Shown one piece after another: positions 9,411 to 57,485 of a stretch of DNA of 64,000 bases. The DNA lies in assembly GCA_937958645.1 (NCBI GenBank), contig CALGNI010000038.1, forward strand, positions 3,647 through 67,646, read 5' to 3'. Each line of letters starts with the position of its first letter. The stretch's first letter is position 1. The stretch is from Candidatus Absconditabacterales bacterium (GTDB lineage Bacteria > Patescibacteriota > Gracilibacteria > Absconditabacterales > Absconditicoccaceae). The notes under the pieces are model-generated. The model saw nothing but the letters and a program-made list of their open reading frames with translations. It did not search any database and was not told where the DNA came from. The position numbers were made by a program, and so were the translations under genes.

Positions 9411-9950
9411 GCTAAGTAAAGCTAAAAGCTGAAAGCCAAAAGCTAAAATATATAGTTTAGTTAATAGTCATTCTTGTTATTGGAGCAAGGAGAAAGAAGA
9501 TTTGATTGAGATTGAACAAAAGAGCCTGTACTTTACAGTCTCTTTTTTTATATTCTAGTAAACAAGAGAGGAGTGTCCTAGTGTATTGGTATATTAGTAC
9601 ATTAACTCGCCTTTGCCTTCGGCATATATTCCTTGCAACTGATCACTTCGTCCCTTCGGTCCTAGTTCTCAGACAAGTAATTAACTTACTAATTCACTAA
9701 TATACTAATTTATCCAATTCACCTAATTTACCCAACTCGCCTAACTTGCCTAACTTGTCTTTACCTTCGATCCTAGTTCTCAGACAAGTAATTAATTTAC
9801 TAATATACTAATTTATCCAATTCACTAATTCACTAATTCACTAATTTACTAATTTATCTAATTCACCTAATTTACCCAATTTACTAATTCACTAATTCAC
9901 TAATCTACTAATTCACCTAATTTACCCAATTTACCCAACCTGTCTAAAAA
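9411..9950. repeat. composite repeat region upstream of mutL
   Basis: Contains 'aagctaaaagctgaaagccaaaagctaaaa' and an inverted copy of the 75-bp element at 9608-9684, with a partial copy at 9759-9797. Long degenerate 8-9-nt arrays 'ttcactaa / tttacccaa / ttcacctaa' span about 9684-9940. Confidence 0.8.
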
Positions 9951-9951
9951 A

Positions 9952-11781
9952 ATGATCAAAAAACTCCCCCAACACCTCATCAACAAACTCAAAGCTGGAG
10001 AAATCGTCGAGCGTCCTGTTTCTATCGTGAAGGAACTCGTGGAAAACTCGCTTGATGCCTGAGCTACGCAGATCAGCATGGAGATTTCTGCTTGAGGAAA
10101 AAAGTTGATTAAGATTCAAGATAATGGAACGGGGATGACCAAAGAAGACCTTCAGATGAGTGTGGAACGTTATGCAACATCCAAACTAGACGAGACAAGC
10201 GATATTGAGATGATCGAAAGTTATGGATTTAGGGGTGAGGCCTTAGCGAGTGTGAGTGAGGTGAGTATCTTTCGTATTCAGACTCGTCAAGCAGCAGAAA
10301 CTGAATCAGGGGTCTGATATGAGCTGTATCGCGCTGAAGGAAGATATGATATCAAGCAAATTCCGTTTGCTCGTGAGCATGGAACGACCGTCTTCGTAGA
10401 AGATGTGTTTCATCATATCCCAGCTCGTGAAAAATTCCTCAAATCTGATTCGACCGAACGAAATTATATCAAGAAAATGTTCTTACAATACGCCCTGGTG
10501 CATCGAGATAAAAAACGAGAGCTCCTCAAGGATGGAAAATCGATGTATAGCTTTCTCCCTGCCGATAGTCTCATGGAAAGAGTGCTTTCACTCACCAAGA
10601 AAGATCGAGAAAAAAATCTAAAAACCCTTGCCTATCAAGATAAGCAATTAGAAATATTTGGTGTAGCTGGAGACGCGAGTTTGCATTTTGCGACTGGCCA
10701 ATATTTTTGGTTGTTTGTGAATGGACGTCCTGTGCAAGATAGAGTCTTAAAGTCTGCTGTGATGGAGGCCTATAGAAGGCAGATCGTGCCAGGTAGTCAT
10801 CCTTTCGTGTGTCTTTTCCTGGAGATAGACCCGAGACAAGTAGATGTGAATGTTCATCCAAGAAAACTCGAAGTAAAATTCCTCGACCCATGAAGCGTGC
10901 ATACCCGCGTCAAAGAAACGATCCGTGAAGCAATAGGAAGTCAAAAAGTGAACTATGCTGCCTTCAATCAAGAAGCAGTGAGGAGTAGCTCTCATCCCAG
11001 CTCAGGTTCAGGGAAAAGATTCAATGCTGAGCAATATCGTCAACATCAGTCTGGATTAACAGAATCTCAAATTCAATGATTGAAGCAGGTATGATCGATG
11101 AAAAACTGAGCTGAAGCAATGATGTTTGGTGCCGCAGATATGGATAAGGTTCATCTGGGGCAAAGTCAGTTGTGAACTGAGCTTATGGTCGTGGGTGAGC
11201 AAGAATCATATACCCTGATTGGCCAACTCCGACAGAGTTATATCCTTCTCCAAGCACCCGATGCATTGGTCTATATTGACCAACATGCTTTAGCAGAAAG
11301 AATCGCTTTTGAACAAATGAAGAAAAAAATAACCGCTGATGGCTTTAGTTCTGAAGTGCTTCTTCAGCCCCTAAGTCTCGAGATCCCCAAAGACATAGAT
11401 ATTGATGAGAAGATTGAACTCTTATGAACGATAGGGTTTGATGCTTCGGTATTGAGTGAGCGGAAGCTTGTCATCTATTCAATTCCTCGTGTGTTTCATG
11501 AGTGGAAGGTGGATATAGAATTGATCATCAATCGAGTCTGGTGAGCCAAGCACAACGCCCAAGGTCCAGAACTTTTTGGTCTGATGGTGGATGAAATGGT
11601 AGGGATGAAAGCCTGCAAAGCCTCAATCAAAGCAGGTCAAAAGCTCAGTCCCCAAGAAATGAAACAGCTCGTCCAAGATGGATTTACCTATATCCCAGGA
11701 ATGTTCGTCTGTCAGCACGGAAGACCAAGCGCAGTAAGGATTGAGAAGGGGAATGTGGATGGGTTGTTTGAAAGGCATTAG
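9952..11781 (+). CDS. mutL: DNA mismatch repair protein MutL
   Basis: '[24 protein letters not shown]', 'IQDNGTGM', '[10 protein letters not shown]', '[12 protein letters not shown]', and C-terminal 'CQHGRPS'. Five track ORFs join in one frame through TGA. TAG stop. Confidence 0.95.
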
Positions 11782-11782
11782 A

Positions 11783-11944
11783 GAAGGAAGAATGAAGAAG
11801 GAAGAATAAAGAAGGAAGAATAAAGAAGGAAGAATAAAGAAGGAAGAATAAAGAAGGAAGAATAAAGAAGGAAGAATAAAGAAGGAAGAATAAAGAAGGA
11901 AGAATAAAGAAGGAAGAATAAAGAAGGAAGAATAAAGAAGGAAT
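11783..11944. repeat. 14-bp tandem repeat (gaaggaagaataaa), about 11.5 copies
   Basis: Unit starts fall every 14 nt from 11783 to 11937, immediately after the mutL stop. Track ORF 11623-11961(-) is just its translation. Confidence 0.95.
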
Positions 11945-12081
11945 ATTGTATTATGTGTCATCCTGAATGAGTTCGTAGCGTAGCGGAGAACGATTGAAGG
12001 ATCTCGAGTGGATACTATCCTTGCGAGATCCTTTTAGTTTTTAGCTTTCAACTTTCAACTTTAAATTTTTAACTTTAATTC

Positions 12082-12740: not shown

Positions 12741-13790
12741 ATGAGAAGTTCATTAATAGTAATAATTATTACTGCAGTATTTTTATGCACCTTGAGTTGT
12801 AATACTACGTGGTATGATGAGGGAGAATTTGAAGAGTTTCCTGAATTATCAATTTCTGGAGATCGCCGAACTCAAGCGATTTGTGATTCTTATCTAGAGT
12901 CGTATGAGTACACGAATGATGTGAGTATTCAGGAGTTATTCTTGGAGTATCAAGTCTTCAAAGCTAATCTTGAAAAATTTTCTTTGTTTGCGATAAAGCA
13001 TAAACAATATCAAACCAAAGGTCTTGGGATCAATATCTTGCCTATGGATATTAAAATACAAGCTTTGTTTGATAGGCGACATATGAAAAGTAAACGAGGT
13101 CAGAATGGCTCGCCATGGTTAATTCTTCAGAACAACTACTATAGAATAGTTAAAAATAAAAGTTCTTCTGAATATCAAAAATACTATTTTGATGGATCTG
13201 AAATAAATAAGAGCGTTGAATTGAAAGACATCTCAAGTTTAACTCTTGGAATGAAAAATTTAGAAGATCTTACGGACTCTGATATTGATTTTAATAGAAA
13301 AAAAGAGTTATTTGATTTCTATAAAGACTTAGAAGATGGATTTACCTATAATCAAGAATGTACTAAGGAAATTTATACTACAGCATTTCTAGGGTGTCCC
13401 TTAGAAAAGCTAGAAAATCTACAAGAAACACCTACTGAGCTTAGAACTAGGACACTACATTCTGAAGAATTAAACTCTTTAGAGTTAGCAGCTCTTAGGC
13501 CTGAAGTATATCATATTTTGAAACAAGCTAATTTCTTTCTTGAGAATTTCACTAAAACTATTTCTAGAAATGATATTCCTTTTTATGATGAGAGTATTGC
13601 AATAGAAATATCTGAAAACTCAGAGAAAGAAATATTCATCGCAGACTGTGATTTTGAAGCAGGTATCGATCAAGACTCATTGAAACTTGGAGCCGAAATT
13701 ACTGTTGGGGGTGATAATCCAATATTAGGATTTGGTGGAGAGTGTAGAGTGAAGATTGAGTGGAAAGCTTTTAAGTCTAAAGCTGAGTAG
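12741..13790 (+). CDS. hypothetical lipoprotein
   Basis: Intact 349-aa ORF. Signal peptide with a lipobox-like 'FLCTLSC'. A terminator lies downstream. No TGA codons. Confidence 0.55.
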   Translation: MRSSLIVIIITAVFLCTLSCNTTWYDEGEFEEFPELSISGDRRTQAICDSYLESYEYTNDVSIQELFLEYQVFKANLEKFSLFAIKHKQYQTKGLGINILPMDIKIQALFDRRHMKSKRGQNGSPWLILQNNYYRIVKNKSSSEYQKYYFDGSEINKSVELKDISSLTLGMKNLEDLTDSDIDFNRKKELFDFYKDLEDGFTYNQECTKEIYTTAFLGCPLEKLENLQETPTELRTRTLHSEELNSLELAALRPEVYHILKQANFFLENFTKTISRNDIPFYDESIAIEISENSEKEIFIADCDFEAGIDQDSLKLGAEITVGGDNPILGFGGECRVKIEWKAFKSKAE

Positions 13791-14068: not shown

Positions 14069-15088
14069 CTATTTATCGTCTCCATCAACCATATCTTCAA
14101 CCATATCCTCAGCTTTATCAATCATATCTCCAGCTACTTCTTCTACTTTATCAATAATTCCGCTTGCTACTCATCCAGTAGCAGCATCTACGGTATCAGC
14201 TAGTTTTGTTACGACTCCTTTTGCCATATCACCAGCTCCGTCGATAGCTCCTCATGCTATACCTCCGAGTCATCCAGCGAGTCCTCACATAAGACCTCCA
14301 GCACCTTTTACAGCATCTCCAAGTCCTCATGCAGCTTTACCAGCAAGATCTCCGGCTCATTCAACTACAGATCCAGCAGCGTCTGCTACTCATCATGCAA
14401 CATTTCCAGCAGCATCAACAGCACCAGAAGCAACGCTTCCAGCAGCATCAACAGCACCACTAGCAACAGATCCAGCAGCGTCTACAGCTCCTTTAGCTGC
14501 GTCACCCACCATATTTCCTGCTCATTTTGCAACATCAACAGCACCAGAAGCAACGCTTCCAGCAGCATCAACAGCACCACTAGCAACAGATCCAGCAGCG
14601 TCTACAGCTCATTTTGCTGCGTCACCTACCATATTTCCAGCTCCTTTAGCCATGTCTCCCAGACCACCAGCTAATCAACCAGCCATTCCAGTTGCCTTAC
14701 CTAGAGTTCCTTTTAGGATACTATCAAGTGAGAAGTCTCAAGCTCCCATAAATACAGTAAGGAGTGAACCGATCAAGATGAAGAGTAGTTTAGGATCAAA
14801 TCATCCAACTGCATTCCATGCAACGATCATGATTATTGCACCAATAATACCAGCTAATCTCGTCTTGTATCCTAGAATCAAAGCAGCACCTGCTAAGATT
14901 TCTCATAAGGTTGCTAACCAAAACCAAACAGTGTTTGGAAGTATTTCCAAGAAAGGAATCAACTGTGATGCAGCTCCTCATACGAAATCAATATTTCCTG
15001 GCATACCACCAAATTTACCAAGTCCAGCTACCAATAATAAGATACCTACAGCAACGCGAATAATTCAAAGTACTTTTCACATAATCAT
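14069..15088 (-). CDS. DoxX-family membrane protein fused to a roughly 210-aa Gly/Ala-rich repeat tail
   Basis: Table-25 ORF of 1020 nt. N-terminus 'VLGIIRVAVGILLLVAGLGKFGG...' with 4 TM segments (DoxX-like). The tail is 'GDAAKGAVDAAGSVASGAVDAAGSVASGAVD...' with a near-identical internal DNA duplication (about 14400-14520 vs 14530-14640). Many Gly are TGA. TAG stop. Confidence 0.65.
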
Positions 15089-20279: not shown

Positions 20280-21290
20280 ATGTATCCTAGAGATGAATCA
20301 AAAAGAGTAGGTCGATCATTGATTGTCTTATTGGCAGCATTGTTATTGGTGTATGTGATCTTTTTTGATGTTCATGGTGATAAGTTGCGTATCGGTTCAT
20401 TGACGGGTCTGGATGAAATCGAGCAAACTCGTTCTTGAAATGAACTTACCGGTGCTGATATTGATAGAATGGTCTATATTGATACTACCAATCAAGTCTC
20501 AAACAACCAAAACTCAGACGATGTATATTATCCATCATATTACCAAGATAGCCCAAATGTAGCACAGACTCAACCCGATACATGATTAATCCAAGCACAA
20601 AATATTCAAAAGGATGCATTAGTCGTTGATCCAACACCTCAAGCAGGTGACACTTCTACCGTCCCAGATATCATCAATGATACGCAAGGAAGAAGATTTT
20701 ACTCAACAGATTTCTTGTTTGGGAGATCTGATCCAGATGATCTTTCATCGGTAAATGTATGATCTACTGCCAATCCTGTATGAGTAAATGCAGGCGTAAG
20801 CAACACAAATGTTGCTCAACAAGCACAAAATATTGTTGCTCCAGCAGTAGCTCCAACCACCACTCCTACAAATCCAATTTCTACCTTGCCCACAGGATCA
20901 ATTCAGTTTGCAAATACCCGAGTGTGGGACGGGATGTTAACTATTCTTCAGAGCCTAGAACTTGATGATGATGTTCGTTATATCTTGAAAGATATTAACA
21001 ATACGCACTATATCTATATGGGTCAACTCCAGTGATCTGTTGCTTCATTAGTAACTTTTTTGTGAGGAACAACCGTTGACATTAACGATCAAACCACTAT
21101 AAAAAACAATCAACTGTTCGGGGCAAATGTCCAAAGAATCACCATGCCATCATATAAGAGTAATCTAAAGGAACTGATGCTGGTGAGATTTGCTAATGGA
21201 GATGTTCGATTTCTTCAAATCGATAAGGATTGGTACAATCAATTGCAAAACAAATTGGAGATAAAGCAGAAGTTTGAGACATATTATTAA
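20280..21290 (+). CDS. hypothetical membrane-anchored protein inserted between nusG and rplK
   Basis: Table-25 ORF. N-terminal TM 'RSLIVLLAALLLVYVIFF', then a low-complexity Q/N/T/P-rich linker, then a C-terminal globular part. TAA stop at 21288. Confidence 0.55.
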
Positions 21291-21404
21291 AATAGAAAGT
21301 TAATTACTTGCCTATGAAACCAGAGCGAAGCGATAGGTTGAGTAGATGTAAGTGATATATGCCTCAGGTAAAAAAGTAAAAAATAGAAAAGAAAGAAAAG
21401 AAGC

Positions 21405-22182: not shown

Positions 22183-22863
22183 ATGGCTAAGAAAGGAAAG
22201 AAGTTTGTTGAAGCTAAAGCAAAGGTAGAAGTGGAAAAGAAATATCCACTTGCTGAAGCTGTAGCATTGGTAAAAGAAGTATCTACAAGTAAGTTCGTAG
22301 GAACACTAGAGCTTCATGTTTGTACTAATGCAAACCCAAAGTATAATGACCAAATCTTGAGAGGGACTGTAGTTCTTCCTCATGGAACAGGGAAAAAAGT
22401 AACAGTTGCTGCATTTGTTGGTGACGAAAACAGAGACGAAGCTACTAAGGCTGGAGCTGATATCGTAGGAAACAAGGAGTTGATCGCTGCTATTGATAAA
22501 GGAGATATCAACTTCGATATCTTGGTAACAACAGCTGATCAAATGAGAGATCTTGCTAAAGTTGCGAGACAGCTTGGACCAAAGGGTCTTATGCCTAGTC
22601 CAAAAGCTGGTACAGTAACAGCAAATCTTGCTAAGACGATTGATGAATTGAAAAAGGGGAGAGTAGAATACAAGCTAGATAAAACAGGAAATGCTCATCT
22701 TGCAGTGGGGAAACTCGACTTCGATGATGCTAAACTTATGGAAAATGTAAGATCAATTCTAGACTCTATGGAAGAAAATAAACCAGTAGGAGTAAAAGGA
22801 AATCTTATCAAAAAGATTGTCCTCGCACCTACTATGGGTCCTGGAGTACAAATTGAAGGATAA
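22183..22863 (+). CDS. rplA: 50S ribosomal protein L1
   Basis: Intact track ORF. 'LPHGTGK', '[15 protein letters not shown]'. No TGA codons. Confidence 0.95.
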
Positions 22864-22890
22864 AAGAGAATTTAAGAAAAAATAAAGAAA

Positions 22891-22917
22891 AATCGGTCGT
22901 GAGATCGATTTTTTTTC
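22891..22917 (+). terminator. rho-independent terminator after rplA
   Basis: aatcggtc/gatcgatt hairpin followed by T8. Confidence 0.7.
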
Positions 22918-22974
22918 ATGTTTTTTTCACACGTATCAATCTGTTTTTTGAGGGAGTATCCTTAGAATAATTTT

Positions 22975-23613
22975 ATGAAAAATAGAAAATCGCCTCGCAA
23001 GAAATGATATGATTATACGTCCTCAGGAGCGTATTTTGTTACGATTAACACAAAAAATCGTAAACCCTTTTTTTGACGGATCATTAAGTCAGATGATCCC
23101 AAAAAAGAACAATATATGAGACTAAATTCATTATGAAAATGCTGTAAACAAAAAATTGAACAAATAAATACCAGAAAAAATGTTACCATAAATGAATGGG
23201 TAATCATGCCGGATCATATCCATATGATTGTGATATTGGCGGAATGGGATATAAATCGAAATGACAAAAAATCCACCATCATAAATAATAATCCTATGAA
23301 CCTATCGTTAAACAATAATCCTATGAACCTATCGTTAATAGGTCCTGGGCGTGATAATCAAAATCAAACGGAATTTTCGAATCAAACGCAGGACGGTTTA
23401 ACGAACCGTCCCTACGATTGACCAACGTTATGAAATATTATAAAATTATTCAAATGAAACGTATCTAAATACGCTAAACAAAATAATATATCATTTGCAC
23501 GACAATCACGTTATCACGATCATATCATCAGGAATCATAATGAATATCGTCGTATTCAATGGTATATCATCAATAATCCTAGACACCGAAAAGGTCTAAT
23601 AAAAACTGACTAA
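22975..23613 (+). CDS. REP-associated tyrosine transposase (RAYT; IS200/Y1_Tnp-like)
   Basis: 'KGYDYTSSGAYFVTINTKNR', 'WVIMPDHIHMIV' (HUH), 'SRYHDHIIRNHNEYRRIQWYIINNP' (catalytic Tyr region). It carries an internal 27-bp tandem duplication (NNNPMNLSL x2) and a REP hairpin at 23391-23416. Confidence 0.75.
23391..23416 (-). repeat. REP hairpin with GTAG head inside the RAYT CDS
   Basis: Minus strand reads cGTAGGGACGGTT-loop-AACCGTCC. Confidence 0.55.
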
Positions 23614-23635
23614 TCAAAACCCCGAAGGGGATATT

Positions 23636-24634
23636 TTATTGCTCAAAATCAATCAAACCTGCACGAGGATTCTGAAGTAAAAACTCACGGGCTTTTGCGA
23701 CGCTTCCTGCGACTCATAGTAAGGTTTTTGCATGATCTGCTTTTATACCAAATTCTTTTACTAACATATCAATACCTCTCTGGTTTAGTTTGTTGTTTGA
23801 TAGTTTCATATAGATCATTTTGTTTCCCAGGGTTCTTTCAAGTTGCACCATAATTGATGTAGAGATTGCATTTAGAACAAGTTTTTGAGCAGTACCAGGA
23901 CTCATTCTTGAGCTTCATTCGATAAAGGCCTCACCAATATTTACCTCTATAGGATAGTCGACGTGCTTTCATAGTGGTGTTCATGGGGAAGTACTAATAC
24001 ATCATGTGAGAATGCCGTTTGCTTTGCAGTCTTTTACTCATCAGATGACATAAGGAGTAGTTCATGAGGCAGCCACTCAAATCACGATGTCTTTGTGTGT
24101 GATAGCATAGTTTTGTAAATCTTTTCGTGCTTGGGTGCTAACGTCTTCTGCATTTTCAACTGAATTTCTCAGAGCTTTATCTCATCAGGCAATGATTCAA
24201 ATCACGGTGTTAGCATCAACACCAAACGTAGGAGGGCATTCTGAGGCATCGAGCACTCCCAGACGTCAACTGGTCCCAGCACCGATAAAAACAAAGATCT
24301 AAAATTGGGCTCACTTCGCCGCAAGCAAACGGAGTATTTGCCCAATTTTTCTTCTCGTTCCTCGAAGACCGATCTTTGTTTTCGTTCGGAAGCCTTCGAA
24401 AGCAACACTATCATGAAGAAGTATGATATCTATTATTGCCTCGCACTAAAGTGACGAGGTAATATTCCGAATATAAAACAGTCTTCACCCAAGTTTCATT
24501 CTTCAACTAATAGCATCAATCAGTTCTCAAGCAGCTTTTGAGCATTTCCTCACTGCAGGAGCAATGAATAAGTCCTTATCATTGATGTGAAGAAAAAGTT
24601 CTTCTCAACTCATCGATGAATGAATTTCAGACAT
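23636..24634 (-). pseudogene. murQ: N-acetylmuramic acid 6-phosphate etherase (MurQ), ORF split by a 186-nt element
   Basis: The 5' part (24634-24473) ends '...KLGGRLFY'. The 3' part (24286-23636) starts '[23 protein letters not shown]' and contains 'GSSRMSPGTAQKLVLNAIST'. Removing 24287-24472 restores the SIS motif [14 protein letters not shown] in frame (813 nt). Read-through hits TAG after 8 codons. Confidence 0.8.
24287..24472 (-). mobile_element. structured roughly 180-nt insertion element, copy A (inside murQ)
   Basis: Homologous to 26721-26897(+) and 57313-57485(+). It has a 5' hairpin acctcgtcac/gtgcgagg and nested helices with compensatory changes between copies. Inserted at tAT|ATc with no target duplication. 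Confidence 0.75.
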
Positions 24635-24810
24635 GCTATCCTACAAAATAAATAACCCTATTGTATGGAATTTATAAAAGATGTATACTGTAAGAACACA
24701 TATCTGATAATTGACCACATGACCTGTTTTTTCATGCGATTTTATTTGTTTTTTATCATTGCTTTATTTATAGTCTAAATAGTAACAAGACCTTTAGAAA
24801 TCTCATACTC

Positions 24811-25407
24811 ATGACAGGTATTCCAAATATAGTCTTAGAAGAAATAGAGCAGCTTAAGGCTGAGGGTAATTATGATAAGGCCTTGAAGAGGGTGAATGGA
24901 CTTTTGTCACGCGATCCTACCAATAGAGAAGCCTTGTATCAAGTGGCTGATATTGAATATAGAAGAGGAGAGATTGGAAAAGCTGAGAAGCCGGTAGATT
25001 TTTTGCTTCAGTCGAATAAGGACGATGCGATGAGTTGGTATATCAAAGGAGTATTGGAAATGGAGAAGACCAATCGATGAACAGCCAAGGAAAAGTTTCA
25101 AAAAGCTCTAGATATGCTTGATCAAGACAATCCAGAGATCTTGAGATGTTATGGATTGTGTGAATATTGGTCTGGAAATAGGGAAGAATGAATGAGTTAT
25201 CTCATGGAATCTCACAAAGTAAATGCGCTTGACGCAGAGGTGATTCTAAATATCATAGAAGTAAGTATTTTGGAACAAGAGAAAGAAACTGCATTGGAAT
25301 ATGTGCAGTATTATTATAAAGTGAAAGATAAGCTTCAATGCTTTGATAGAGACATCACGTATTATGAAGAAAAAATTCAACTGTTTGAAGAGTTTCTCAA
25401 AGGATAA
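24811..25407 (+). CDS. TPR repeat protein
   Basis: Track ORFs 24811-25080 and 25192-25407 are in frame through TGA. 'AEGNYDKALKRVNGLLSRDPTNREALYQVADIEYRRG' is TPR-like. Confidence 0.65.
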
Positions 25408-25433
25408 GAAAGGAGGCGAATTTTTGTTAAACG

Positions 25434-26354
25434 ATGTTGATGAAAAATACTACACGACAAATGATCAAATCATCATGGACCCATATGCTTTCTCTGGTAG
25501 GAATCATTAGTTTTTTGTTGTTCTTTCTAAATTTGTTGATTATCTTATCGTACAATACAGGAGTCTTCAATGAAGATGTAAGAGAAAAATTATGAGTGTA
25601 TCTGTACTTGGATGATACAGAAGTCGCTAAAGACCTCATATATTCCGAAGCAATTGATATGAAATCAGAGTTGGAAGCAGCATGAATGACCGTTGATTTT
25701 TACTCGAAAGATGATGCATTTGAAATATTAGAAGAAAGATTACCGAATGTGATCGATAATTTTGAAAGATACGGTATTGATAATCCCTTACCGCCGACCT
25801 TGTATATCCAGTTTTCCAATGAACAAGATTATTCTCGTTTGAAAGACATCGTATTGAGTTATGAAGATGTGATTATAAATTTATCAGACTTAGAATCTTC
25901 CTGATTTACCTTTACTGAACAAGAGCGTAGATCAGCTAATGTGATCAACCTTACAAACTTTCTAAATCAGTTTAGTTATTTCCTTATCGCGATCGTTCTT
26001 GCGATTATTATTGCCTTTCTTCTATTTGGATTGAAAATTACCTTCTATCGCTTTCGAGAACAAATCGAAGTGGAGAAGCTGTTATGAGCAGGATATTTTC
26101 ATATCAAAAAGCCCTTCCTGATCATGTCAGCGATTGTGCTTTTGGTTGCATTTGGCCTTATGGTACTGTATTTCCTTGGGTTCTTTGCTGCATTGGATGG
26201 ATATGTGATGTCAGTATTTAGCGTCTCAGTATATGAATACCTCCTACCGCTCAACTTCATCCAAGAGTTTCTCACCCGAGAAGCATTGATTCTAGTATGT
26301 CTCGGGGTGTTGTTTTCTCGAGGGTTTTTGAGTAGGTTGATTAGGAGGGTGTAG
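25434..26354 (+). CDS. ftsX: cell division protein FtsX-like permease
   Basis: N-terminal TM segment, periplasmic domain 'DAFEILEERLPNVIDNF...PLPPTLYIQF', and three C-terminal TM segments. SD 'aaggagg' at 25410. Track ORFs 25686-25904 and 26124-26354 are in frame. Confidence 0.75.
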
Positions 26355-26356
26355 GT

Positions 26357-26506
26357 AAGTTAATTACTTGCCTATAAGCTAGGACCAAAGGGACGAAGTG
26401 ATCAGTTGCAAGGAATATATGCCGAAGGCAAAGGCAAGCTAGTTTGTATGTCATCCTGAACGTAGGGACATAATTTCTTATGTTCCGTAGTGAAGGATCT
26501 CGAGAG
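26357..26506 (+). repeat. 75-bp element copy plus GTAG-REP / 'gtcatcctgaa...gaaggatctcgag' element
   Basis: 26357-26436 is 'taattacttgcctataagctaggaccaaagggacgaagtgatcagttgcaaggaatatatgccgaaggcaaagg'. 26449-26506 contains GTAGGGACA-loop-TGTTCC. Confidence 0.8.
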
Positions 26507-26531
26507 GTTTTGGTTCTAGAATAGATAAAAT

Positions 26532-26568
26532 AAAAAGATCTACCTAATAATCAGGTAGATCTTTTTTT
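26532..26568. terminator. bidirectional terminator
   Basis: agatctacct/aggtagatct 10-bp stem flanked by A5 and T7. Confidence 0.8.
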
Positions 26569-26962
26569 ACACAGTAAATTCTCTATTTATGATTCAGTCT
26601 TCATAGTCTGGATGCTTTTCATTAGTCTTAAGTGTTTTGTAAGCTTCACGTTGTTTATCTATTCTTGCCTTTGCCGCGTTTTTTGCGCAATCATCTCGAT
26701 ATTCAGAATGTCAGAAAGATATTCGGATCATTACCTCGTCACTTTAATTAGAAGCAATCAAAGAAAACCTACTTCTTCATGATTCATAATGAATTTGTCG
26801 ACATCCGAACGAAACAAAATATCGATTATTGAAGAATGAGATGAAAATTTAGGCGAATACCTCGTCGAGGTGAGTCTAAATTTAGATATTTTGTTTTATT
26901 AGATTTTTGGCAGCTTTGATTTTTAGAATAGAGTCTGGCTTTGTGCGCTTTTGGATTTTCAT
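26567..26962 (-). pseudogene. small ORF (72 aa if repaired) split by element copy C lying antisense
   Basis: 26962-26898 encodes 'MKIQKRTKPDSILKIKAAKNL'. Joining it to 26720-26567 gives an in-frame '...ISFGHSEYRDDCAKNAAKARIDKQREAYKTLKTNEKHPDYEDGIINREFTV', ending exactly at the terminator (219 nt total). Confidence 0.45.
26721..26897 (+). mobile_element. structured roughly 180-nt insertion element, copy C
   Basis: 'attcggatcattacctcgtcac...tacttcttcatgat...ccgaacgaaacaaaatatcg...aaaatttaggcgaatacctcgtcgaggtgagtctaaatttagatattttgtttt'. Inserted at gAT|ATt. Confidence 0.7.
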
Positions 26963-27004
26963 AGGTAATTTATATAAAGATAAAATTCTTCTTCCTTCTT
27001 CCTT

Positions 27005-28201
27005 CTAAACTCTACTTTCTATCACCCCACTCCCTACCAATTCATCACCATCGTACAAAACAACAATCTGTCCTGGTGAGATGGCGCGTTGGGGTGTGGT
27101 GAATGTTACGAGGTAGGATTGATTTGACTCATGCTGGGTTAATCCCTCTCAGTCCCCCTTTGAAAAGGGGTCTTTACGCTTGGGTTTGCCGTCGAACCCC
27201 TCTGTCTTTCACTGCGTTCAAGACATCTCCCCTAAGGGGAGACCATCAGATTGTTTTTCAATTTTTGTAATTTCACACTCTTGGTCTTCTTGTCTGTAAC
27301 GGATCTTGGCGTGGCCTTTCCGGGGAACTGAAGGAGTCTCTCATGAGGTCCACTGAATTTCTGATGCAATGAGTGAATCGTGCATAAGGTCTTTTTCTTG
27401 ATCTTTACTGACAGTGATCGTGTTTGAAGAGGTGTCTTTTGCAATTACATACCAAGGACCTCCACCGAGTCAGAGTCATGTTCTTTGACCAATAGTCACA
27501 AAGTGAGCTCATTCATGCTGTCAGAGGATTTTTCCTTCGGTATCAACTATGTTTCAGGGCTTTTTTGGCAAGGCTTCTTGAAGAAATTCTTTGATGGGCA
27601 CCTTTCCGATGAAACATAGTCATTGGCTGTCTTTGCGATCTGCATTGGGAAGTTTGATTTCTTGAGCGATCTTTCTTACTTCATCTTTGGTGAGTTCTCC
27701 CAGAGGAAATAAAGAGGATGCTAATTGCTCTTGGTTTAGTCCTGAGAGAAAATATGACTGATCTTTGTTGTGATCGATTCATTTTAAGAGTAATTTTTTT
27801 CAATCATGTTCTGAGATTCTTGCATAATGGCCTGTAGCGACGTAATCACAGTTGAGTTTTTTTGCTTCATCCAAAAAAAGTTTGAATTTAACTTCGCTGT
27901 TACATAAGACATCAGGATTTGGGGTAAGGCCTTTTTCATAGCCATCATAGATGTACTGGATGATGGTTTGATGGTATTGTTCACGAAAGTCAAAGATGAT
28001 AAATGTCTTGATTCATAGGTGTTTTGCAACTTTTAGTGCCATATCTCTATCTTGTCTGGTATGACAGTGGGGATTTTCTTCTTCAGCATAGTTTTTCATA
28101 AATCCCGCAATGACCTCATATCATTGGGTTTGCAAAAGATGTGCTGACACCGCAGAGTCAACTCATCAAGATAATCATAAGAGGACGCGTTTTTTTTTCA
28201 T
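27005..28201 (-). CDS. mnmA: tRNA-specific 2-thiouridylase MnmA, with an in-frame GC-rich insert
   Basis: PP-loop 'VLLGLSGGVDSAV' (both G of SGG are TGA, about 28161-28166), '[12 protein letters not shown]', 'ATGHYAR', 'KDQSYFL', 'DSQGLCFIG', 'PQRAISPGQ'. Length 1197 nt. TAG stop. Confidence 0.9.
27130..27250. repeat. GC-rich palindromic element embedded in frame in mnmA
   Basis: 'tccctctcagtccccctttgaaaaggggtc...acatctcccctaaggggagacc', with hairpins tctcccc/ggggaga and cccctttt/aaaagggg. Translated as about '[41 protein letters not shown]'. Confidence 0.7.
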
Positions 28202-28204
28202 AAG

Positions 28205-28390
28205 GTGAATTAGGCAAGTTGGGTAAATTAGACAAGTTAATTACTTGCCTGAGAACTAGGACCGAAGGGACGAAGTGATCAGCTGCAAGGAATATATGCC
28301 GAAGGCAAAGGTAAATTAATTACTTGCCTGAGAACTAGGACCGAAGGGACCAGCTGCAAGGAATATATGCCGAAGGCAAAGGCAAGTAAT
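28205..28390 (+). repeat. octamer array plus two tandem copies of the 75-bp element
   Basis: Copies lie at about 28237-28311 and 28312-28382. The second lacks 'gaagtgat'. Confidence 0.85.
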
Positions 28391-28416
28391 TATTTAACGA
28401 TTATATCATTATTGCT

Positions 28417-29247
28417 TCATAAGTCTAGTCTAGTGACTGCGTTGAAATCGTTGTAGTACTGGGTAAGGTCCAGGAGTTTGGCGAGTTGAGAGTCGATAGA
28501 TTTGTCTAAGTGAAATAAGATGAGTTTATCTTTGTAAGTGAGATGAAGTTTTTGCCCTCCTGCAAAATATTCGATATCTTTGATGTCTTTAGCGTCTATG
28601 ATATCAAAGATGTTGTTGATCACCGTGACTAGCGTGCTGCTGTGAATATGATAAAAAATACCTTCTAGTGATTCGTATCATGTCTCCCTAGATGGGAGTC
28701 TTATTCTTGTTAATCATTCTTGGATACTATCTGAGGCCTGGACTTTGTAAGCCTGATTATCGCTAGCGATCCAGGTGCTACCATCATGCGTGAGTGCCAA
28801 ATCAGCTGAATTAAAGATGATCTGCGCGAGGATCGTGTTTTTTTGTTTGGGCTTTGTGATTTGGATGTCTTGTATGATGGGAAATTGTTCTTTGATGGTG
28901 GATTCAAAGTCTCCTTGTTTGGTATAGGTATAGGTGCTTCGATTCATGCCTGAGAAGTACTGAGTGATTCATTCTTGTATCTCTTGGCTATCGTATATTA
29001 TCAAGCTTTCTTCATCAATAATTACTTGTTGAATAATATTTTCTGGATTGGTAAGAAAACGACTCGTGATCAGTCGTCAAATTCCAGTCAATATCGGCAC
29101 TCAAAAAATAAGTCCCCAATTTGTTGGGGAGATACTCTTCCGGATTCTTTGTTTTTTGCGTTTTCTAATCTTCGTGATTTCTTTCTTCTTGCTTTTTCAT
29201 CAAGATCAGAGTTTTAGCGGTATTTTTAAGTTTTTAGATTTTAGCAT
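28417..29247 (-). CDS. hypothetical membrane-anchored protein
   Basis: Track ORFs 28417-28623 and 28714-28947 are in frame. They extend through TGA to ATG 29247 (831 nt). Basic N-terminus plus TM 'NWGLIFGVPILTGIGRLITSRFL'. Confidence 0.5.
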
Positions 29248-29298
29248 TGGGGAAGACAGGGGTAAACTACGCTTATTTTGTGATAGCTAACTATGTGT

Positions 29299-29736
29299 TT
29301 ATCATATGATCGTGAGGAGCAAAAGCGTAATCAGTACTCATGCAAGGATTCATCAAATAACTTCTCATACCGTATGACCCAATCTTTCTTTGAGTTGCTC
29401 TGGAGTTTCTTGTCCCGGATTTAGTTCATTGAGTCCTTTAGTGATCTGATTCAACGAGCTAGCGTGTTGACCCGCTTGATATCTTATGTTGGCTGCATCA
29501 TACCAAAACAAAAATGAAAAAGTGATGGTAATCGCAAACTCTACCGAATGCAGGCCAGTATAGTATACCACTAAGGTACAAATGCTTGATGAGATACCAC
29601 TATGAACAGAAGGGAATCATCAAGATCACCAGAGTCAGCTCATAGTGAAGGTTTTTTCTACAGTATAGTCAATCAAGACTTTGACCGCTTGGATCAAAGC
29701 TCCTACTACTAGGGGAACTATAAAGAGTAATTTCAT
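29299..29736 (-). CDS. divergent PAP2 / DUF212 family membrane protein
   Basis: 'GGFPSVHSG', 'WYDAANIRYQAGQHA', 'LKERLGHTVGEVIGG'. Track ORF 29365-29571 extended both ways through TGA. Ends ATA TGA TAA. Confidence 0.65.
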
Positions 29737-30082
29737 GAGAATAAGTAAGTCAAAGACTGAATTAGTGAAACTATAGGAATATGGCGCTAGGGATCAATAG
29801 CAATAGGGTATCTGTTGCTTTTTGGTCTGGAAGTCTTGATTTGAATCTTGCTAACCGTATGCTTGAAGTTCTTTAAAAAAAAACAGAGAATTATCTATTA
29901 AGGAGGTGATGATTTACTTCGAAAAGAGATAGAAAGATGGTTTTTTTTATATTTTTTCGAGCAGTGAAGAATTGCCTCCTCGAGGAAATGATAGCAAACA
30001 AGCCAATTCATTTTTTTGAATTTTCTTCGAACTTCTGTATTCTAACTCTTCGCTAAGTTTTTCATCATTTCCTTAAAGCACA

Positions 30083-31246
30083 ATGGTATCTATCATATTG
30101 TTAGTACTTAGTTTGATTATCTTGATTTGAATGGTAGCTTGGTCTCTGTTGAGAGGGTGGCGAATACTGTTTTTTGGTTGTTTGTTGTTATTATTTGGGA
30201 TAGGGGCGATGTTTAGTGTAAGTATTCATGAGTCTTTTGAATACACCCGTAAGTTTCTTGATGCCCCTTCAAATTACTTCTACTTCTTTGAACATATAGA
30301 AAAATTTATTTTGTGAGCGATCGTTTGTCTCATTGCGTATGTTACCCCCTGGGCTTGGGTCAAGAAGAGTAGTTTCTTGCTGTTTGCGGGGAGTTTGATT
30401 TTGATGCTGGCACTGTTTTTTATCTGAGATGATTTCAATAAAGGGGCCAACTTATGGATTAGGATTGCAGGGAATACCATCCAACCAGGGGAGTTCTTTA
30501 AGGTCTGAATGGTGTTCTTCTTAGTTTCACGGCTGTCTAGGAAAAAAAGAGTCTTCGATGAACTTCAATATTATCTTTGATTTGCTATGATTGCGTGACT
30601 TTGTGCATGAATCTACTTCTTCTTGCCTGATTATGGGTCATTACTGATTATCGGTCCCGTTGCTTTGATTCTGTTTCGATTTTATGGAGGTAAACGATAT
30701 TATATTCTCACGACGCTAGTGTTAGGATTTTTTGTGGTTGTATTAGCTTCTGCCAAAAGTACCTATGTAAATGAAAGAATTGGGTATTTCTTAGACCCCA
30801 GTAGTGACCCTAGTTCAAGAGGGATTGGATGGCAAACTACACAGTCATTGGTAGCAGTAGGATGATGATGAATTATTGGGAAAGGGTATGGAAAGGGATT
30901 ACAAAAGTTTTGATATATCCCGGAAGCTCAAAGTGACTTTATCTTTGCTGCGTTTTCGGAAGAAATAGGATTTTTGGGAAATAGTATCTTACTGACTCTG
31001 TACTTCTTGCTTGCCCGAAACGTCCTCAAATGACTCAAGTGACTTCGCGATCCTTTCGATAGAGGAATCGTAGTGTGACTTCTTTCGTTGATTATCATGC
31101 AGATGTTCGTAAATATCGGAGTAAATATCAAATTACTTCCTTTGACCTGAGTGACCTTGCCTTTCATTAGTCATGGATGATCCGCGTTGATGGTGAATAT
31201 GCTCGAGATCGTGTTGTTGCATAAGATTGTTAATAAGATACCGTAA
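30083..31246 (+). CDS. ftsW: FtsW/RodA/SpoVE family peptidoglycan glycosyltransferase
   Basis: 'IQPGEFFKV', 'PDYGS', 'GGGGIIGKGYGKG', 'IPEAQSDFIFAAFSEE', 'GVTLPFISHGGSA'. Track ORFs 30131-30316 and 30623-30865 are in frame. Confidence 0.9.
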
Positions 31247-31510
31247 AGAGAAAGAGATAATAATTCGTCAGTAGGGATGCTTCATTAAAGCATCCCGGAA
31301 TCAAGAATTCTCCATCATTTAGTATATAGGAAATTCTAAATACTGACTGTACAAGCTGCTTATGAACGAGTGATTAAAAAAAATAGTATATATTTGCTGA
31401 ATACATATAAATACTCCAATTACTGACTAAGCAATAAGTTTTGGAGTACTAATTCTATATTAAAAAGATTGAATCAAAAACCCGAAGGATTATTTTATTT
31501 TATTACGCTC

Positions 31511-32290
31511 ATGATCCTAGAACCAAAGACATGATTTGTTGGAAATGCCTTGTGAGATGAGGTATATGATTTGCAAGTAAAGGAGGGAGTTTTCCCAACT
31601 CATTGTGAGGAGGTTTTGGTGATGCATAAGTGAAATATAAAGAGCATGAGGCCTCAAGAAATCTGAGATGGTATGGAGGTGGTAAAGCTAAAAGCTAAAA
31701 GCTGAAAGCTAAAAGATGAAATTGACAAGGTGAATCTTATTTCGGGGATGAGTATCTATCAATGGTTTGATGAGAATACATGAACGCAGGAAACATATGC
31801 TTATGGAATTGATAGATCTAAAATTGATTGGATAAATGATGTTTGCAAGGATTTATGATTATGAGTATCATTGGAAGATGAAAAATTTGTAAAAATCACC
31901 AACTGATCGTTCCAGATTCCTGAGGATTGATTGCTCTCTTTCTTCTTTTGACTAGTGCTGATTTATGGTAAATTTACCATCGTTGATGAGGTCTTGAGAC
32001 ATGCAGTAATTCAACTTCCTTTGGTGGGGAGTATAGCAATGCAGGAAGAAATTCTGTTAAACTTAAAAGAAGTATTATTTGAGCAAGAATTGTATCTAAC
32101 GATTACTTATCTCACACAAAAGTCATGACAACTCTTGCAAGTCAATATTCATGATGAAGAAATCTTAGATATATGGAGTAGTTGGCTATGATGAGAAGCT
32201 CATGAGTATGATACTCTCCGCAATGAGATCAAAAATTTTGCTCAAATCGATGAAATTGATAACTACGTTTTGAAATTCCTTCATAAATAA
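31511..32290 (+). CDS. hypothetical protein
   Basis: 780-nt table-25 ORF with many TGA and a TAA stop. It contains the 'aagctaaaagct' repeat in frame. No family recognised. Confidence 0.4.
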
Positions 32291-36886: not shown

Positions 36887-37564
36887 TTAATGATAGAATT
36901 GTAGCTTAATCGCGGTCGGATCGAATCCAACAGTAATCTGCGGAGAGGCATAGCCAACTGCAGCAGTTGAACCATCCAAATAGATTGCATTGTTGCAGTC
37001 TTGTAATCGTAGAGCTTCACTAAGCTCATAAAAGGTAACGGGTTGATTTGATATAGCTACTACTAGTGAGCCATCATCTCGGTATCCAACTCCAGATCTA
37101 ATATATCTAGATGGATTGGACTTGTTGTGTAAGTTCTTTCCTTGGAGTACTAGGATCATCCCATTCTGAAACCCCCATAAGAGATATTCAGGTGTATGTA
37201 TCCAATCTTCATACCGTTGGAGGATCATCTTGCCTTGCTTTGTTAATCCAAATATTCCATTATCATTACTGAAGTTGCCAGGATAGTCACTTGGTTCTAC
37301 CCAAGGCTTTTTCTGTAAGGAAATACTGTAATACTTTTGAGTTTTTTTATTATAACGATGTTCTGTTACAACATAACCACCAACAGGTGTCCCATCTCCT
37401 ACAAACAATGGACCATTGACCACATAAGAGATATGCTTAGTGCAGTCCTGGAACTTACCAAATCCAATATCATAATTATTGTTTGGGTATAGGAAGGTAA
37501 AGTTCTGAGCGAAGGTACTTGAAAGTACACAAACGAAGGTAACTAATGTTAAGAAGTTTTTCAT
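36887..37564 (-). CDS. phosphodiester glycosidase family (DUF2233) secreted protein
   Basis: Intact track ORF. Signal peptide ends 'SSTFAQ'. 'RSGVGYRDDGSLVVA', 'AIYLDGSTAA'. No TGA among about 20 Gly codons. Confidence 0.7.
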   Translation of the reverse strand: MKNFLTLVTFVCVLSSTFAQNFTFLYPNNNYDIGFGKFQDCTKHISYVVNGPLFVGDGTPVGGYVVTEHRYNKKTQKYYSISLQKKPWVEPSDYPGNFSNDNGIFGLTKQGKMILQRYEDWIHTPEYLLWGFQNGMILVLQGKNLHNKSNPSRYIRSGVGYRDDGSLVVAISNQPVTFYELSEALRLQDCNNAIYLDGSTAAVGYASPQITVGFDPTAIKLQFYH

Positions 37565-40939: not shown

Positions 40940-41503
40940 ATGTTGCAAAATATCTTAAAAACCGCTTTCATTTGCTTTTTATCTCTTTCTTTCAGTTCTT
41001 TGTTTGCTCAAGATGAGCCAATCAACTTGACTGATATGCATCAACGAATACAAGAGTTGGAAAAGAAACTAGCTGAGAATGGAGATGAAACAGTAGCTGA
41101 AATTGAAATTGATGAAGGCTGGAAGATGAGTATCGGATTTACTTTAAGTCCATCATTCATCTACACTCTAGAGGATGATGCTCCGACACAGCTTGGGGCA
41201 CCATTGTTAGCTACCTTCTCTTTAGCTAAGGAGAAGTGGTTCATCGGGGCTTACTATAGCTTAGCGAGTAATGAGCCATCAATATTGGTGAATTATTCAC
41301 TAAATCCCAAGCTTGGTGTATATTACTTAGGGAGTATCAATCCAAAGATTGATCTGAAGTATAGTTCTATAGGTCTTACAACACCCTTAGGAAATGCGCT
41401 AGGATTTATCGAGGTGGGAAGGAATTTTGGCTCAGAAGCTTCAAGTACTAAACCTTACCTGGTTGGAGGAGTGTTAATCTTCTTCATGAAGGACTTAAAC
41501 TAA
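40940..41503 (+). CDS. hypothetical secreted protein (possible small beta-barrel)
   Basis: Intact track ORF. Signal peptide ends 'SSLFAQ'. Alternating hydrophobic pattern. No TGA. Confidence 0.55.
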   Translation: MLQNILKTAFICFLSLSFSSLFAQDEPINLTDMHQRIQELEKKLAENGDETVAEIEIDEGWKMSIGFTLSPSFIYTLEDDAPTQLGAPLLATFSLAKEKWFIGAYYSLASNEPSILVNYSLNPKLGVYYLGSINPKIDLKYSSIGLTTPLGNALGFIEVGRNFGSEASSTKPYLVGGVLIFFMKDLN

Positions 41504-48204: not shown

Positions 48205-48270
48205 AAATTTTACCCGCATGTTTTAGTGTAGTAATACGATTTGATTATTTTTTTATAAAATATTTTAAAG

Positions 48271-49236: not shown

Positions 49237-49268
49237 TACATTAAAAGTTTTATTAAAAGATACTTTCC

Positions 49269-51961: not shown

Positions 51962-51995
51962 AGGAGTAGTGCTATTTTAAATCTTATGACATAAT

Positions 51996-52766: not shown

Positions 52767-52779
52767 TATACTTAAATTT

Positions 52780-53595: not shown

Positions 53596-53596
53596 C

Positions 53597-57138: not shown

Positions 57139-57214
57139 AGCGCTCAAGTAGTTGTTATATGAGATCGTTGACTATTCTGTATGTGCTTTTTTGAATTGAT
57201 TTGAACAACTTCTT

Positions 57215-57485
57215 TTATTGCGTCGCACTGAAGTGATGAGGTAATATTCCGAATATATATTAAATCAGAAATATCAAAACTTTTTTATAAGTTATATATG
57301 ACTAAATAATTCTACTTCTTCGTGATAGTAATGCTTTCCCAGACTTTCGAACGAAAACAAAGGTCTATCTTCGAGGAACGAGAAGAAAAATTGGGCGAAT
57401 AGTTTCATTTCATGAAACCGCTAATCAAAGATTAGTACTCCGTTCGCTTGCGACGGAGCAAGTCCAATCTTAGATTTTTGTTTTT
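57215..57485 (+). mobile_element. structured element copy B (rearranged, intergenic)
   Basis: The core 57313-57485 aligns with copies A and C and carries an extra hairpin insert. The 5' hairpin module (57215-57255) is present but inverted and displaced by about 57 nt. Confidence 0.65.

What the first reader, a model, noticed from the sequence alone, without database searches (positions are those of the whole stretch)
23636..24634. murQ is seamlessly interrupted by a 186-nt structured element at the conserved SIS motif
The MurQ reading frame stops being MurQ after '...GGRLFY' (codon at 24473-24475) and resumes with '[22 protein letters not shown]' at 24286. Deleting exactly 24287-24472 restores the canonical [14 protein letters not shown] motif in frame. 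There is no target-site duplication and the junction is tAT|ATc. As assembled, translation terminates 8 codons into the insert. The insert belongs to a repeat family (next finding), and a RAYT/Y1 transposase gene ends only about 670 bp away (23613). Two readings fit: a freshly inactivated gene in a streamlined genome, or a reversible interruption that excises precisely as IS200/IS605-type elements do.
Basis: partly seen in the sequence, partly recalled or inferred. Interest (0 to 1): 0.8.

Follow-up and report, generated by a model that had tools for sequence, protein, structure and literature searches.

The report
Small hairpin-ended mobile element splits murQ
A 186-base non-coding mobile DNA element of a previously undescribed family has inserted cleanly into the murQ gene, and a sister copy into a second small gene, of a bacterium that reads TGA as glycine; this most likely switched both genes off recently, and nothing here shows the interruption is repaired.

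Summary
With genetic code 25 (TGA = Gly), murQ (24634..23636, minus strand) is open except for 24287-24472. Removing those 186 nt gives a 270-aa MurQ with [14 protein letters not shown]. Four orthologous loci from relatives carry an uninterrupted murQ. The closest reads CTGTTTTAT|ATTGG at the predicted junction. An independent assembly of run ERR9287619 crosses the junction, so it is not an assembly artefact.

The insert is non-coding, strongly folded (z about -5), has no terminal inverted repeats and matches no Rfam family. None of the relatives carries it.

New findings:
- Copy B (26721-26897) seamlessly splits a second conserved gene of 72 aa, in antisense orientation. This argues against RNA splicing.
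- "No target-site duplication" is not established, because TAT brackets copy A and TATT brackets copy B.
- The neighbouring Y1 gene is RAYT-like and is absent from that position in three relatives. It is not flanked by the element's hairpins.

Best reading: a recent insertion of a non-autonomous, hairpin-ended element, probably moved by an HUH/Y1-type single-strand mechanism, has inactivated murQ. Reversible excision is possible but untested. Moderate interest; a new member of a known kind.

The parts
24473..24634 (-). murQ 5' segment, codons 1-54, ending ...GGRLFY
   Evidence: Code-25 translation; collinear with L030 murQ
24287..24472 (-). Element copy A, 186 nt, non-coding and strongly folded, sense to murQ. 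Boundaries are ambiguous from -1 to +2 nt.
   Evidence: absent from L030 and L033-L035
23636..24286 (-). murQ 3' segment, codons 55-270 plus stop, starting [10 protein letters not shown]
24471..24473 (-). TAT at the left junction, one of two direct copies
24285..24287 (-). TAT at the right junction, the second direct copy
24446..24448 (-). First in-frame stop (TAG), 8 codons into the insert
24385..24471 (-). 5' folded domain (element nt 2-88), closed by UUCGGAA/UUCCGAA
24439..24459 (-). Left subterminal hairpin CCTCGTCAC-TTTA-GTGCGAGG (nt 14-34), preceded by ATTA
24287..24383 (-). 3' folded domain (nt 90-186), a three-way structure. Most of the 9 compensatory pairs among copies A, B and C lie here.
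24312..24336 (-). Right hairpin (nt 137-161), preceded by AATA. It resembles the left hairpin and lies in the same orientation.
26721..26897 (+). Element copy B, 177 nt, 71% identical to A, bracketed by TATT. It splits a conserved 72-aa gene in antisense orientation.
26898..26962 (-). 5' part of the small gene split by copy B (MKIQKRTKPDSILKIKAAKNLI)
26567..26720 (-). 3' part of the small gene (SFGHSEYRDDC...REFTV plus stop)
   Evidence: the restored protein is 48% identical, without gaps, E = 2e-23, to the syntenic 74-aa gene of L033-L035
57308..57485 (+). Element copy C, nt 45-186, with a 34-nt internal insertion; intergenic between two TrmB-like genes
57211..57254 (-). Left-end module (nt 1-44) of copy C, inverted relative to the rest of that copy
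22975..23613 (+). Y1/HUH gene, RAYT-like, with an HIH motif and an internal duplication. It is convergent with murQ and absent from this position in L033-L035.

Best explanation
Copy A is a recent insertion of a small non-autonomous mobile element of a previously undescribed family. The element is about 183-186 nt, has no ORF and no terminal inverted repeats, and folds into two back-to-back domains. It carries a similar hairpin near each end in the same orientation and is always joined to a TAT.

It landed between the Tyr and Ile codons of the MurQ phosphate-binding loop. In the assembled genotype murQ is therefore truncated after 54 residues plus 8 junk codons, and is non-functional. A sister copy did the same to a 72-aa gene next to mnmA.

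Shown here: the insertion itself, the empty sites in relatives, the structure, the absence of terminal inverted repeats, and the restriction of the element to this genome.

Inferred: movement by an HUH/Y1-type single-strand 'peel and paste' mechanism like IS200/IS605, supplied in trans. That mechanism would also allow precise excision. The recently arrived RAYT-like gene 674 nt away is the only candidate enzyme in view.
For: - Insertion: removing exactly 186 nt restores MurQ. The empty site is at the identical position in L030, and murQ is intact in L033-L035.
- Not an artefact: Logan contig L037, an independent assembly of ERR9287619, runs from the Y1 gene across the murQ/element junction and 52 nt into the element. 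It stops next to a 29-mer shared with copy C. Copy B's junction is also crossed.
- Mobile family: there are three copies in 64 kb and none in about 57 kb of relatives. Copy B also splits a gene seamlessly.
- Recent: murQ has no other lesion, and its dN/dS against L030 is 0.12, compared with 0.04-0.17 for seven neighbouring genes.
- Type: there are no terminal inverted repeats (5/20 and 3/20 matches). The hairpins near both ends have related sequence, A(T/A/G)TA followed by C(C/T)(T/C)CG...; copy B's right hairpin shares TACCTCGTC with the left hairpin. All three left flanks end in AT, or in ATAT if the boundary is placed at +2; the chance of two further AT is about 0.012.
- Selection on the fold: helices are kept through 9 compensatory pairs.
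- Fit to the known mechanism: IS200/IS605 elements insert 3' of a specific tetra- or pentanucleotide, carry subterminal hairpins and excise precisely (PMC5027513, PMC6006769).
- Candidate enzyme: a Y1 gene is present only in this genome at this locus.
Against: - No IS200-type tnpA or tnpB is in the window.
- The Y1 gene is RAYT-like and scores below its family cut-off (62.6 against 80 bits). It is not flanked by the element's hairpins.
- Copy A lies opposite to copies B and C although GC skew is uniform across the window. That does not fit a strict lagging-strand orientation bias, though there are only three copies.
- The TAT/TATT direct repeats could be a true 3-bp target duplication, which would point to another transposase type.
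- The strand preference of the fold is slight: -44.7 against -41.5 kcal/mol.
- Only three copies were available, because the rest of the genome could not be read.
Confidence: 0.68

Rival explanations
1. Reversible interruption. The element is regularly and precisely excised at the DNA level, by a Y1/HUH enzyme or by slippage between the TAT repeats across the extruded hairpins. murQ and the small gene would then remain usable in part of the population and stay under selection, as a switch or an IES-like intervening sequence.
For: - Two of three copies sit inside otherwise intact conserved genes, in either orientation.
- Both ends of the element lie at the base of closed helices, which brings the flanks together.
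- Identical TAT repeats sit at both junctions.
- murQ shows no relaxed selection.
- IS200/IS605-type excision is precise (PMC5027513).
Against: - There is no direct evidence of an empty allele. The restored MurQ of this genome is not among 15 billion proteins, although this test is weak because my guessed interrupted fragments were absent too.
- The Logan contig crosses the junction without a break there.
- Intact flanking halves and a low dN/dS are equally expected for a recent insertion.
Confidence: 0.12
2. A classical cut-and-paste miniature element, moved by a DDE transposase, that duplicates a 3-bp TAT target.
For: TAT brackets copy A and TATT brackets copy B, so a 183-nt core plus a 3-bp duplication fits the empty site exactly.
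Against: - There are no terminal inverted repeats under either boundary definition.
- No DDE transposase is in the window.
- The same trinucleotide in every copy suggests sequence-specific joining rather than a staggered cut at arbitrary sites.
Confidence: 0.12
3. RNA-level removal. The insert is a new kind of intron or ribozyme-bounded intervening sequence, spliced from the mRNA to give intact MurQ.
For: - The fold is strong and conserved, with compensatory changes.
- The insert length is a multiple of three.
- The gene is otherwise intact.
Against: - No Rfam intron or self-cleaving ribozyme matches, even at E up to 10.
- The possible ends are U or A, with no terminal G of group I and no GUGYG...AY of group II.
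- There is no exon-exon pairing or bulge-helix-bulge.
- Copy B is antisense to the gene it splits.
- Copy C is intergenic.
- No RtcB or maturase gene is in the window.
Confidence: 0.03
4. Assembly artefact, or ancestral presence with loss in the relatives.
For: The window comes from a metagenome-assembled contig. Repeats can be misplaced in such assemblies.
Against: - An independent assembler reproduces both the A and B junctions.
- All MurQ homologues examined, including four syntenic relatives at two distances, lack the insert.
Confidence: 0.03

Closest known systems
Non-autonomous IS200/IS605 derivatives (palindrome-associated transposable elements) moved by Y1/HUH TnpA
   Same: No terminal inverted repeats. 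Related hairpins near both ends on the same strand. The left end always abuts the same short motif, (AT)AT. Insertion is seamless, with the empty site exactly restored in relatives. The mechanism would allow precise excision (PMC5027513, PMC6006769).
   Different: No cognate IS200-type tnpA or tnpB was seen. The right hairpin lies 25 nt from the end, nested inside a longer stem. Copy orientations are mixed despite uniform GC skew. TAT occurs on both sides. Two of three copies are inside genes.
REP/REPIN elements with their RAYT (REP-associated tyrosine transposase)
   Same: A RAYT-like Y1 gene is the only candidate enzyme, and like the element it is restricted to this genome. The elements are short and structured. 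Copy C has one hairpin module inverted, as in BIMEs.
   Different: The element is not extragenic. It is 180 nt with two different domains rather than a doublet of 20-40-nt palindromes. It has no GTAG/CGTC-type tag. The RAYT gene is not flanked by the hairpins.
Rickettsia palindromic elements (in-frame insertions in coding genes); comparison from my own knowledge
   Same: Small structured repeats found inside conserved protein genes, with lengths that are multiples of three (186 and 177 nt).
   Different: Those are translated as part of the host protein. Here the host frame meets two TAG stops in copy A and four stops in copy B.
IStrons and group I/II introns; comparison from my own knowledge
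   Same: A structured element interrupts an ORF seamlessly. IStrons share IS605-type ends.
   Different: The element is too short, has no intron model match and no terminal G, and one genic copy is antisense.

Membership tests
IS200/IS605-type non-autonomous element | No terminal inverted repeats | tested here: met
   5/20 and 3/20 matching positions between the two ends
IS200/IS605-type non-autonomous element | Left end inserts 3' of an element-specific tetra- or pentanucleotide, without target duplication | tested here: inconclusive
   All three left flanks end in AT (ATAT at boundary +2). But TAT or TATT also follows the right end in copies A and B, which mimics a 3-bp duplication. Only three copies.
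IS200/IS605-type non-autonomous element | Similar subterminal hairpins of about 20-25 nt at both ends on the same strand, each with a 5' guide tetranucleotide | tested here: met
   Left hairpin at nt 14-34 after ATTA; right hairpin at nt 137-161 after AATA/AGTA, with related stems. Guide-to-cleavage-site pairing could not be established.
IS200/IS605-type non-autonomous element | A cognate IS200-type tnpA carrying the same ends | tested here: not met
   None in the 64-kb window. The rest of the genome could not be read.
IS200/IS605-type non-autonomous element | Orientation bias relative to replication | tested here: inconclusive
   GC skew is positive throughout the window. Copy A lies opposite to B and C. 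Only three copies.
IS200/IS605-type non-autonomous element | Precise excision as a single-stranded circle | not testable with these tools
   Needs raw reads or an experiment.
REP/REPIN-RAYT system | RAYT gene flanked by its own REPs (REPtron) | tested here: not met
   No element hairpin flanks 22975-23613; only ordinary terminators are there.
REP/REPIN-RAYT system | Extragenic 20-40-nt palindromes, or inverted doublets, with a GTAG/CGTC-type 5' tag | tested here: not met
   The element is 177-186 nt with two domains and hairpins in direct orientation. The 5' flank is A(T/A/G)TA. Two of three copies are inside genes.
REP/REPIN-RAYT system | The protein is a RAYT | tested here: inconclusive
   NF047646 scores 62.6 bits, below the 80-bit cut-off; IS200 TnpA scores only 20 bits; Pfam Y1_Tnp scores 24.9 against 23.
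Self-splicing intron or IStron | Match to intron or ribozyme covariance models, and canonical termini | tested here: not met
   No Rfam hit at E up to 10. The possible ends are U or A.
Self-splicing intron or IStron | Sense orientation in every interrupted gene | tested here: not met
   Copy B is antisense to the 72-aa gene.
Classical MITE (DDE transposase) | Terminal inverted repeats plus target-site duplication | tested here: not met
   Terminal inverted repeats are absent. A TAT repeat is present.
In-frame coding repeat (RPE-like) | Open host reading frame through the element | tested here: not met
   Two TAG stops in copy A and four stops in copy B, in the host frame.
MurQ (N-acetylmuramic acid 6-phosphate etherase), the host gene | Passes the curated family model and matches solved MurQ structures | tested here: met
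   NF003915 scores 298 bits against a 168-bit cut-off. 4S12 matches at E = 8e-55.

The most novel reading that the evidence does not exclude
The family is a bacterial counterpart of ciliate internal eliminated sequences. In this reading, TAT-bounded, hairpin-ended DNA segments reside inside functional genes in either orientation. A recently acquired Y1/RAYT-type enzyme removes them precisely in enough cells, or on one strand, for murQ and the 72-aa gene to remain under selection.
Probability: 0.08. Interest if true: 0.85.

Novelty: new member of a known kind. Interest (0 to 1): 0.45.

Why it matters
This documents, with exact empty sites, an active family of tiny mobile elements without terminal inverted repeats in a code-25 candidate-phyla-type bacterium. 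Mobile DNA is poorly described in such lineages, and their genomes are assumed to be streamlined.

Two of three copies disrupt conserved genes. The family is therefore either eroding genes right now or is tolerated because it can leave cleanly. Raw reads could distinguish the two.

It also gives a concrete, testable substrate for a divergent RAYT-like Y1 enzyme, a protein class whose activity on anything other than REPs is largely unknown.

There is a practical point too. Gene callers using code 4 or 11 mis-annotate these loci.

Tried and rejected
- Pattern scans for the element in genome contigs and metagenome contigs gave only chance hits.
- Two viral-contig scans and distant blastn against phages and plasmids found nothing.
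- A protein search with the concatenated six-frame peptides of the element, meant to catch spurious ORFs over other copies, found nothing.
- A protein search with concatenated lineage-specific window proteins found nothing.
- Exact look-ups with TGA = Gly failed because the collection called these genes with TGA = Trp. Cluster look-ups with code-4 translations then worked and led to L033-L038.
- Translational bypass was rejected. There is no stop right after the take-off codon. The only matching take-off and landing pairs would drop the conserved Tyr or shift the frame. The gap of 186 nt is far longer than known hops (reasoned from the sequence).
- An archaeal-type bulge-helix-bulge was rejected: there is no exon-exon pairing.
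- IS110/bridge-RNA type was rejected: the flanks of A and B share nothing beyond TAT, and no recombinase is present.
- A TnpB guide-RNA remnant could not be supported: there is no tnpB and no Rfam match.
- My early statement that the fold clearly favours the sense strand was withdrawn after a fair two-strand comparison.

Full report
**1. The observation**

The window uses genetic code 25. The murQ frame on the minus strand contains 17 in-frame TGA codons. Eight lie on alignment columns where all nine compared homologues have glycine. Three more lie on columns where glycine is the commonest residue, and none lies on a tryptophan column. The table-11 ORF list is therefore misleading here.

With code 25, murQ (24634..23636) reads normally to ...GGRLFY and then enters 186 nt of unrelated sequence. 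That stretch gives IRNITSSL followed by a TAG stop at 24448-24446. MurQ resumes at [10 protein letters not shown]. Deleting 24287-24472 gives a 270-aa protein. This protein passes the NCBIfam MurQ subfamily model (298 bits against a 168-bit cut-off). It also matches solved MurQ structures 4S12, 4LZJ and 1NRI at E about 1e-54.

**2. It is an insertion, shown by empty sites**

The closest MurQ in 5.8 billion proteins (P0001, 86% identity) lies on contig L030. That contig has the same gene order as window 23612-31762 and is 88-94% identical in DNA. Its murQ is uninterrupted and reads CTGTTTTAT|ATTGGTGC at the predicted junction.

A cluster look-up of the neighbouring TPR protein led to three more distant syntenic loci, L033-L035, at 73-85% nt identity. 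All three have an intact 269-aa murQ. Ten aligned MurQ homologues show nothing between FY and IGAG.

**3. It is not an assembly artefact**

The organism is also present in the Logan assembly of run ERR9287619. Contig L037 matches window 22584-24338 at 99.94%. It runs from the Y1 gene through the murQ 3' segment, across the junction, and 52 nt into the element. It ends beside a 29-mer shared with copy C, which looks like a repeat-induced break rather than a break at the junction. Contig L038 likewise crosses copy B's junction.

**4. The element**

- BLAST and a profile search find copy A, copy B (26721-26897, plus strand, 71% identical) and copy C. Copy C is at 57308-57485 on the plus strand and is 84-91% identical to A over its aligned segments. 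It has a 34-nt internal insertion, and its first 44 nt are inverted at 57254..57211.
- No frame is open in all copies, so the element is non-coding.
- It folds far better than shuffled sequence: RNA z = -4.9 and DNA z = -5.6.
- The fold has two back-to-back closed domains, nt 2-88 and nt 90-186, so both element ends sit at the base of helices.
- Across the three copies the consensus fold has 63 pairs, and 9 of these are kept through changes on both sides. Copy B's divergence is therefore at least partly subfamily divergence under structural constraint, not simple decay.
- The preference for one strand is slight: -44.7 against -41.5 kcal/mol.
- No Rfam family matches, even at E up to 10.
- There are no terminal inverted repeats.
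- A hairpin lies near each end in the same orientation. Each is preceded by A(T/A/G)TA and has a related stem. Copy B's right hairpin shares TACCTCGTC with the left hairpin.

**5. The junctions**

TAT straddles both junctions of copy A, and TATT straddles both junctions of copy B. Copy C has TAT on the left and TAC on the right.

The data fit either of two readings:
- a 183-nt core with a 3-bp TAT repeat;
- an element that ends in (T)TAT and always joins 3' of (AT)AT.

All three left flanks end in AT. The chance of that for the two additional copies is about 0.012.

**6. A second interrupted gene**

Copy B lies in a minus-strand ORF. Only removal of exactly 177 nt joins its two halves in frame. 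The restored 72-aa protein is 48% identical to the 74-aa protein encoded just downstream of mnmA in L033-L035, with no gaps and E = 2e-23. The alignment runs across the insertion point. An exhaustive search with a 38-residue fragment of this protein found nothing except this genome's own truncated product.

So two of the three copies split conserved genes seamlessly, one in sense and one in antisense orientation. This argues strongly against any RNA self-splicing explanation. Further points against splicing are the unsuitable termini, the absence of exon pairing and the lack of intron or ribozyme matches.

**7. Age and selection**

Apart from the insert, murQ has no lesion. Its dN/dS against L030 is 0.12, within the 0.04-0.17 range of seven neighbouring genes. 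That fits a recent insertion. It fits continued function equally well and cannot separate the two.

**8. The Y1 gene**

The gene at 22975-23613 has an HIH motif. It scores best as a REP-associated tyrosine transposase: 62.6 bits, below the 80-bit cut-off, against 20 bits for IS200 TnpA. In L033-L035, L1 is followed directly by murQ across a 76-nt spacer, so this gene is itself a recent arrival.

None of the relatives' roughly 57 kb carries the element, compared with three copies in 64 kb here. The element and the Y1 gene are thus both restricted to this genome, which is only a correlation.

The Y1 gene is not flanked by the element's hairpins. No other transposase, TnpB, reverse transcriptase or RNA ligase was found among the roughly 40 predicted window proteins scanned against Pfam.

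**9. Mechanism**

The best-supported reading is a non-autonomous element moved in trans by an HUH/Y1-type single-strand mechanism. The evidence is:
- no terminal inverted repeats;
- like hairpins near both ends on one strand;
- a fixed motif at the left junction;
- exact empty sites in relatives.

These match the IS200/IS605 description: insertion 3' of a specific tetra- or pentanucleotide, subterminal hairpins and precise excision (PMC5027513, PMC6006769).

Several points weigh against membership of that family:
- no cognate tnpA was seen;
- copy orientations are mixed under uniform GC skew;
- TAT occurs on both sides.

As assembled, murQ is inactivated. Precise excision is mechanistically plausible but not shown. 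The restored MurQ of this genome is absent from 15 billion proteins. That test is weak, because my guessed forms of the interrupted fragments were absent too.

**10. Verdict**

This is a new family of a known general kind of element. It is notable for sitting inside genes in a code-25 lineage. The exciting reading, reversible IES-like interruption, is not excluded but has no positive support.

Noticed in passing
whole window: The genetic code is 25 (TGA = Gly). Public gene calls for this contig and its relatives used TGA = Trp, so their proteins carry W at conserved Gly positions, for example P0001 and P0121.
   Followed up: yes
window 22864-23635, compared with L033 8937-9012: The RAYT-like Y1 gene is itself an insertion between rplA (L1) and murQ. 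Three relatives have only a 76-nt spacer there. The gene also contains a 27-nt tandem duplication (23282-23335) encoding NNNPMNLSL twice.
   Followed up: partly
window about 31325-31500; L030 7101-7174: A second insertion without target duplication, about 176 nt, lies between ftsW and the next gene. L030 reads CATCATTTAGT^TTATTACG at that place. Its only homologue sits next to the murQ terminator in L030, where the window has the Y1 gene. It may be a fragment of a gene's 3' end plus terminator.
   Followed up: partly
window 9601-9703, 21281-21384, 26352-26444, 28229-28392: Another repeat family of about 90 nt, in both orientations at gene ends, forming a long hairpin (REPIN-like). The copy at 26352-26444 is absent from L030.
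   Followed up: no
window 57211-57485: Copy C is rearranged. Its left-end module is inverted and separated from the rest by a spacer of about 50-58 nt. A 34-nt insertion with two small hairpins lies just 5' of the right hairpin.
   Followed up: partly
window about 24314 (element nt 159) compared with L037: The Logan contig differs from the window by one base inside copy A (CGAAG to CGGAG). The change restores a base pair in the right hairpin. This is either population variation or cross-talk with another copy.
   Followed up: no
window 26445-26990, compared with L030 4351-4503 and L033 11589-12480: The ftsX-mnmA spacer differs in each lineage. The window has the small gene plus copy B. L030 has only TTAGTAGA-type tandem repeats and has lost the small gene. 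L033-L035 have the small gene plus a Cu-oxidase_4 gene.
   Followed up: partly
window 48000-64000: This is a low-GC block (29-31%, against 35-40% elsewhere). All ten of its proteins that I looked up are singletons at 90% identity. It encodes amino-acid-related enzymes, including a single-chain PheRS-like protein (tRNA-synt_2d plus FDX-ACB, 54981-56291), a biopterin-dependent hydroxylase, an aminotransferase, GCS2 and an MR_MLE enzyme. It may be an acquired island.
   Followed up: partly
window 12741-13790, 22183-22863, 36887-37564, 40940-41503: Only four of the 50 predicted genes checked contain no TGA codon. Three of them, apart from rplA, are lineage-poor or secreted-looking proteins. They may be recent acquisitions from a standard-code donor.
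   Followed up: no
murQ 23636-24634: Outside its own lineage, the nearest MurQ homologues are Bacteroidota (Flavobacteriia) at 57-61% identity, which suggests horizontal acquisition of murQ. The more distant relatives' murQ is only about 65% identical in DNA, although the neighbouring genes are 73-85% identical.
   Followed up: no
window 11737-11985, 14376-14681, 9653-9925: Three tandem repeat arrays: a 14-nt unit starting at the 3' end of mutL and running past it, a 33-nt unit inside a low-complexity ORF, and TTAGTAAAT-like units in a spacer.
   Followed up: no
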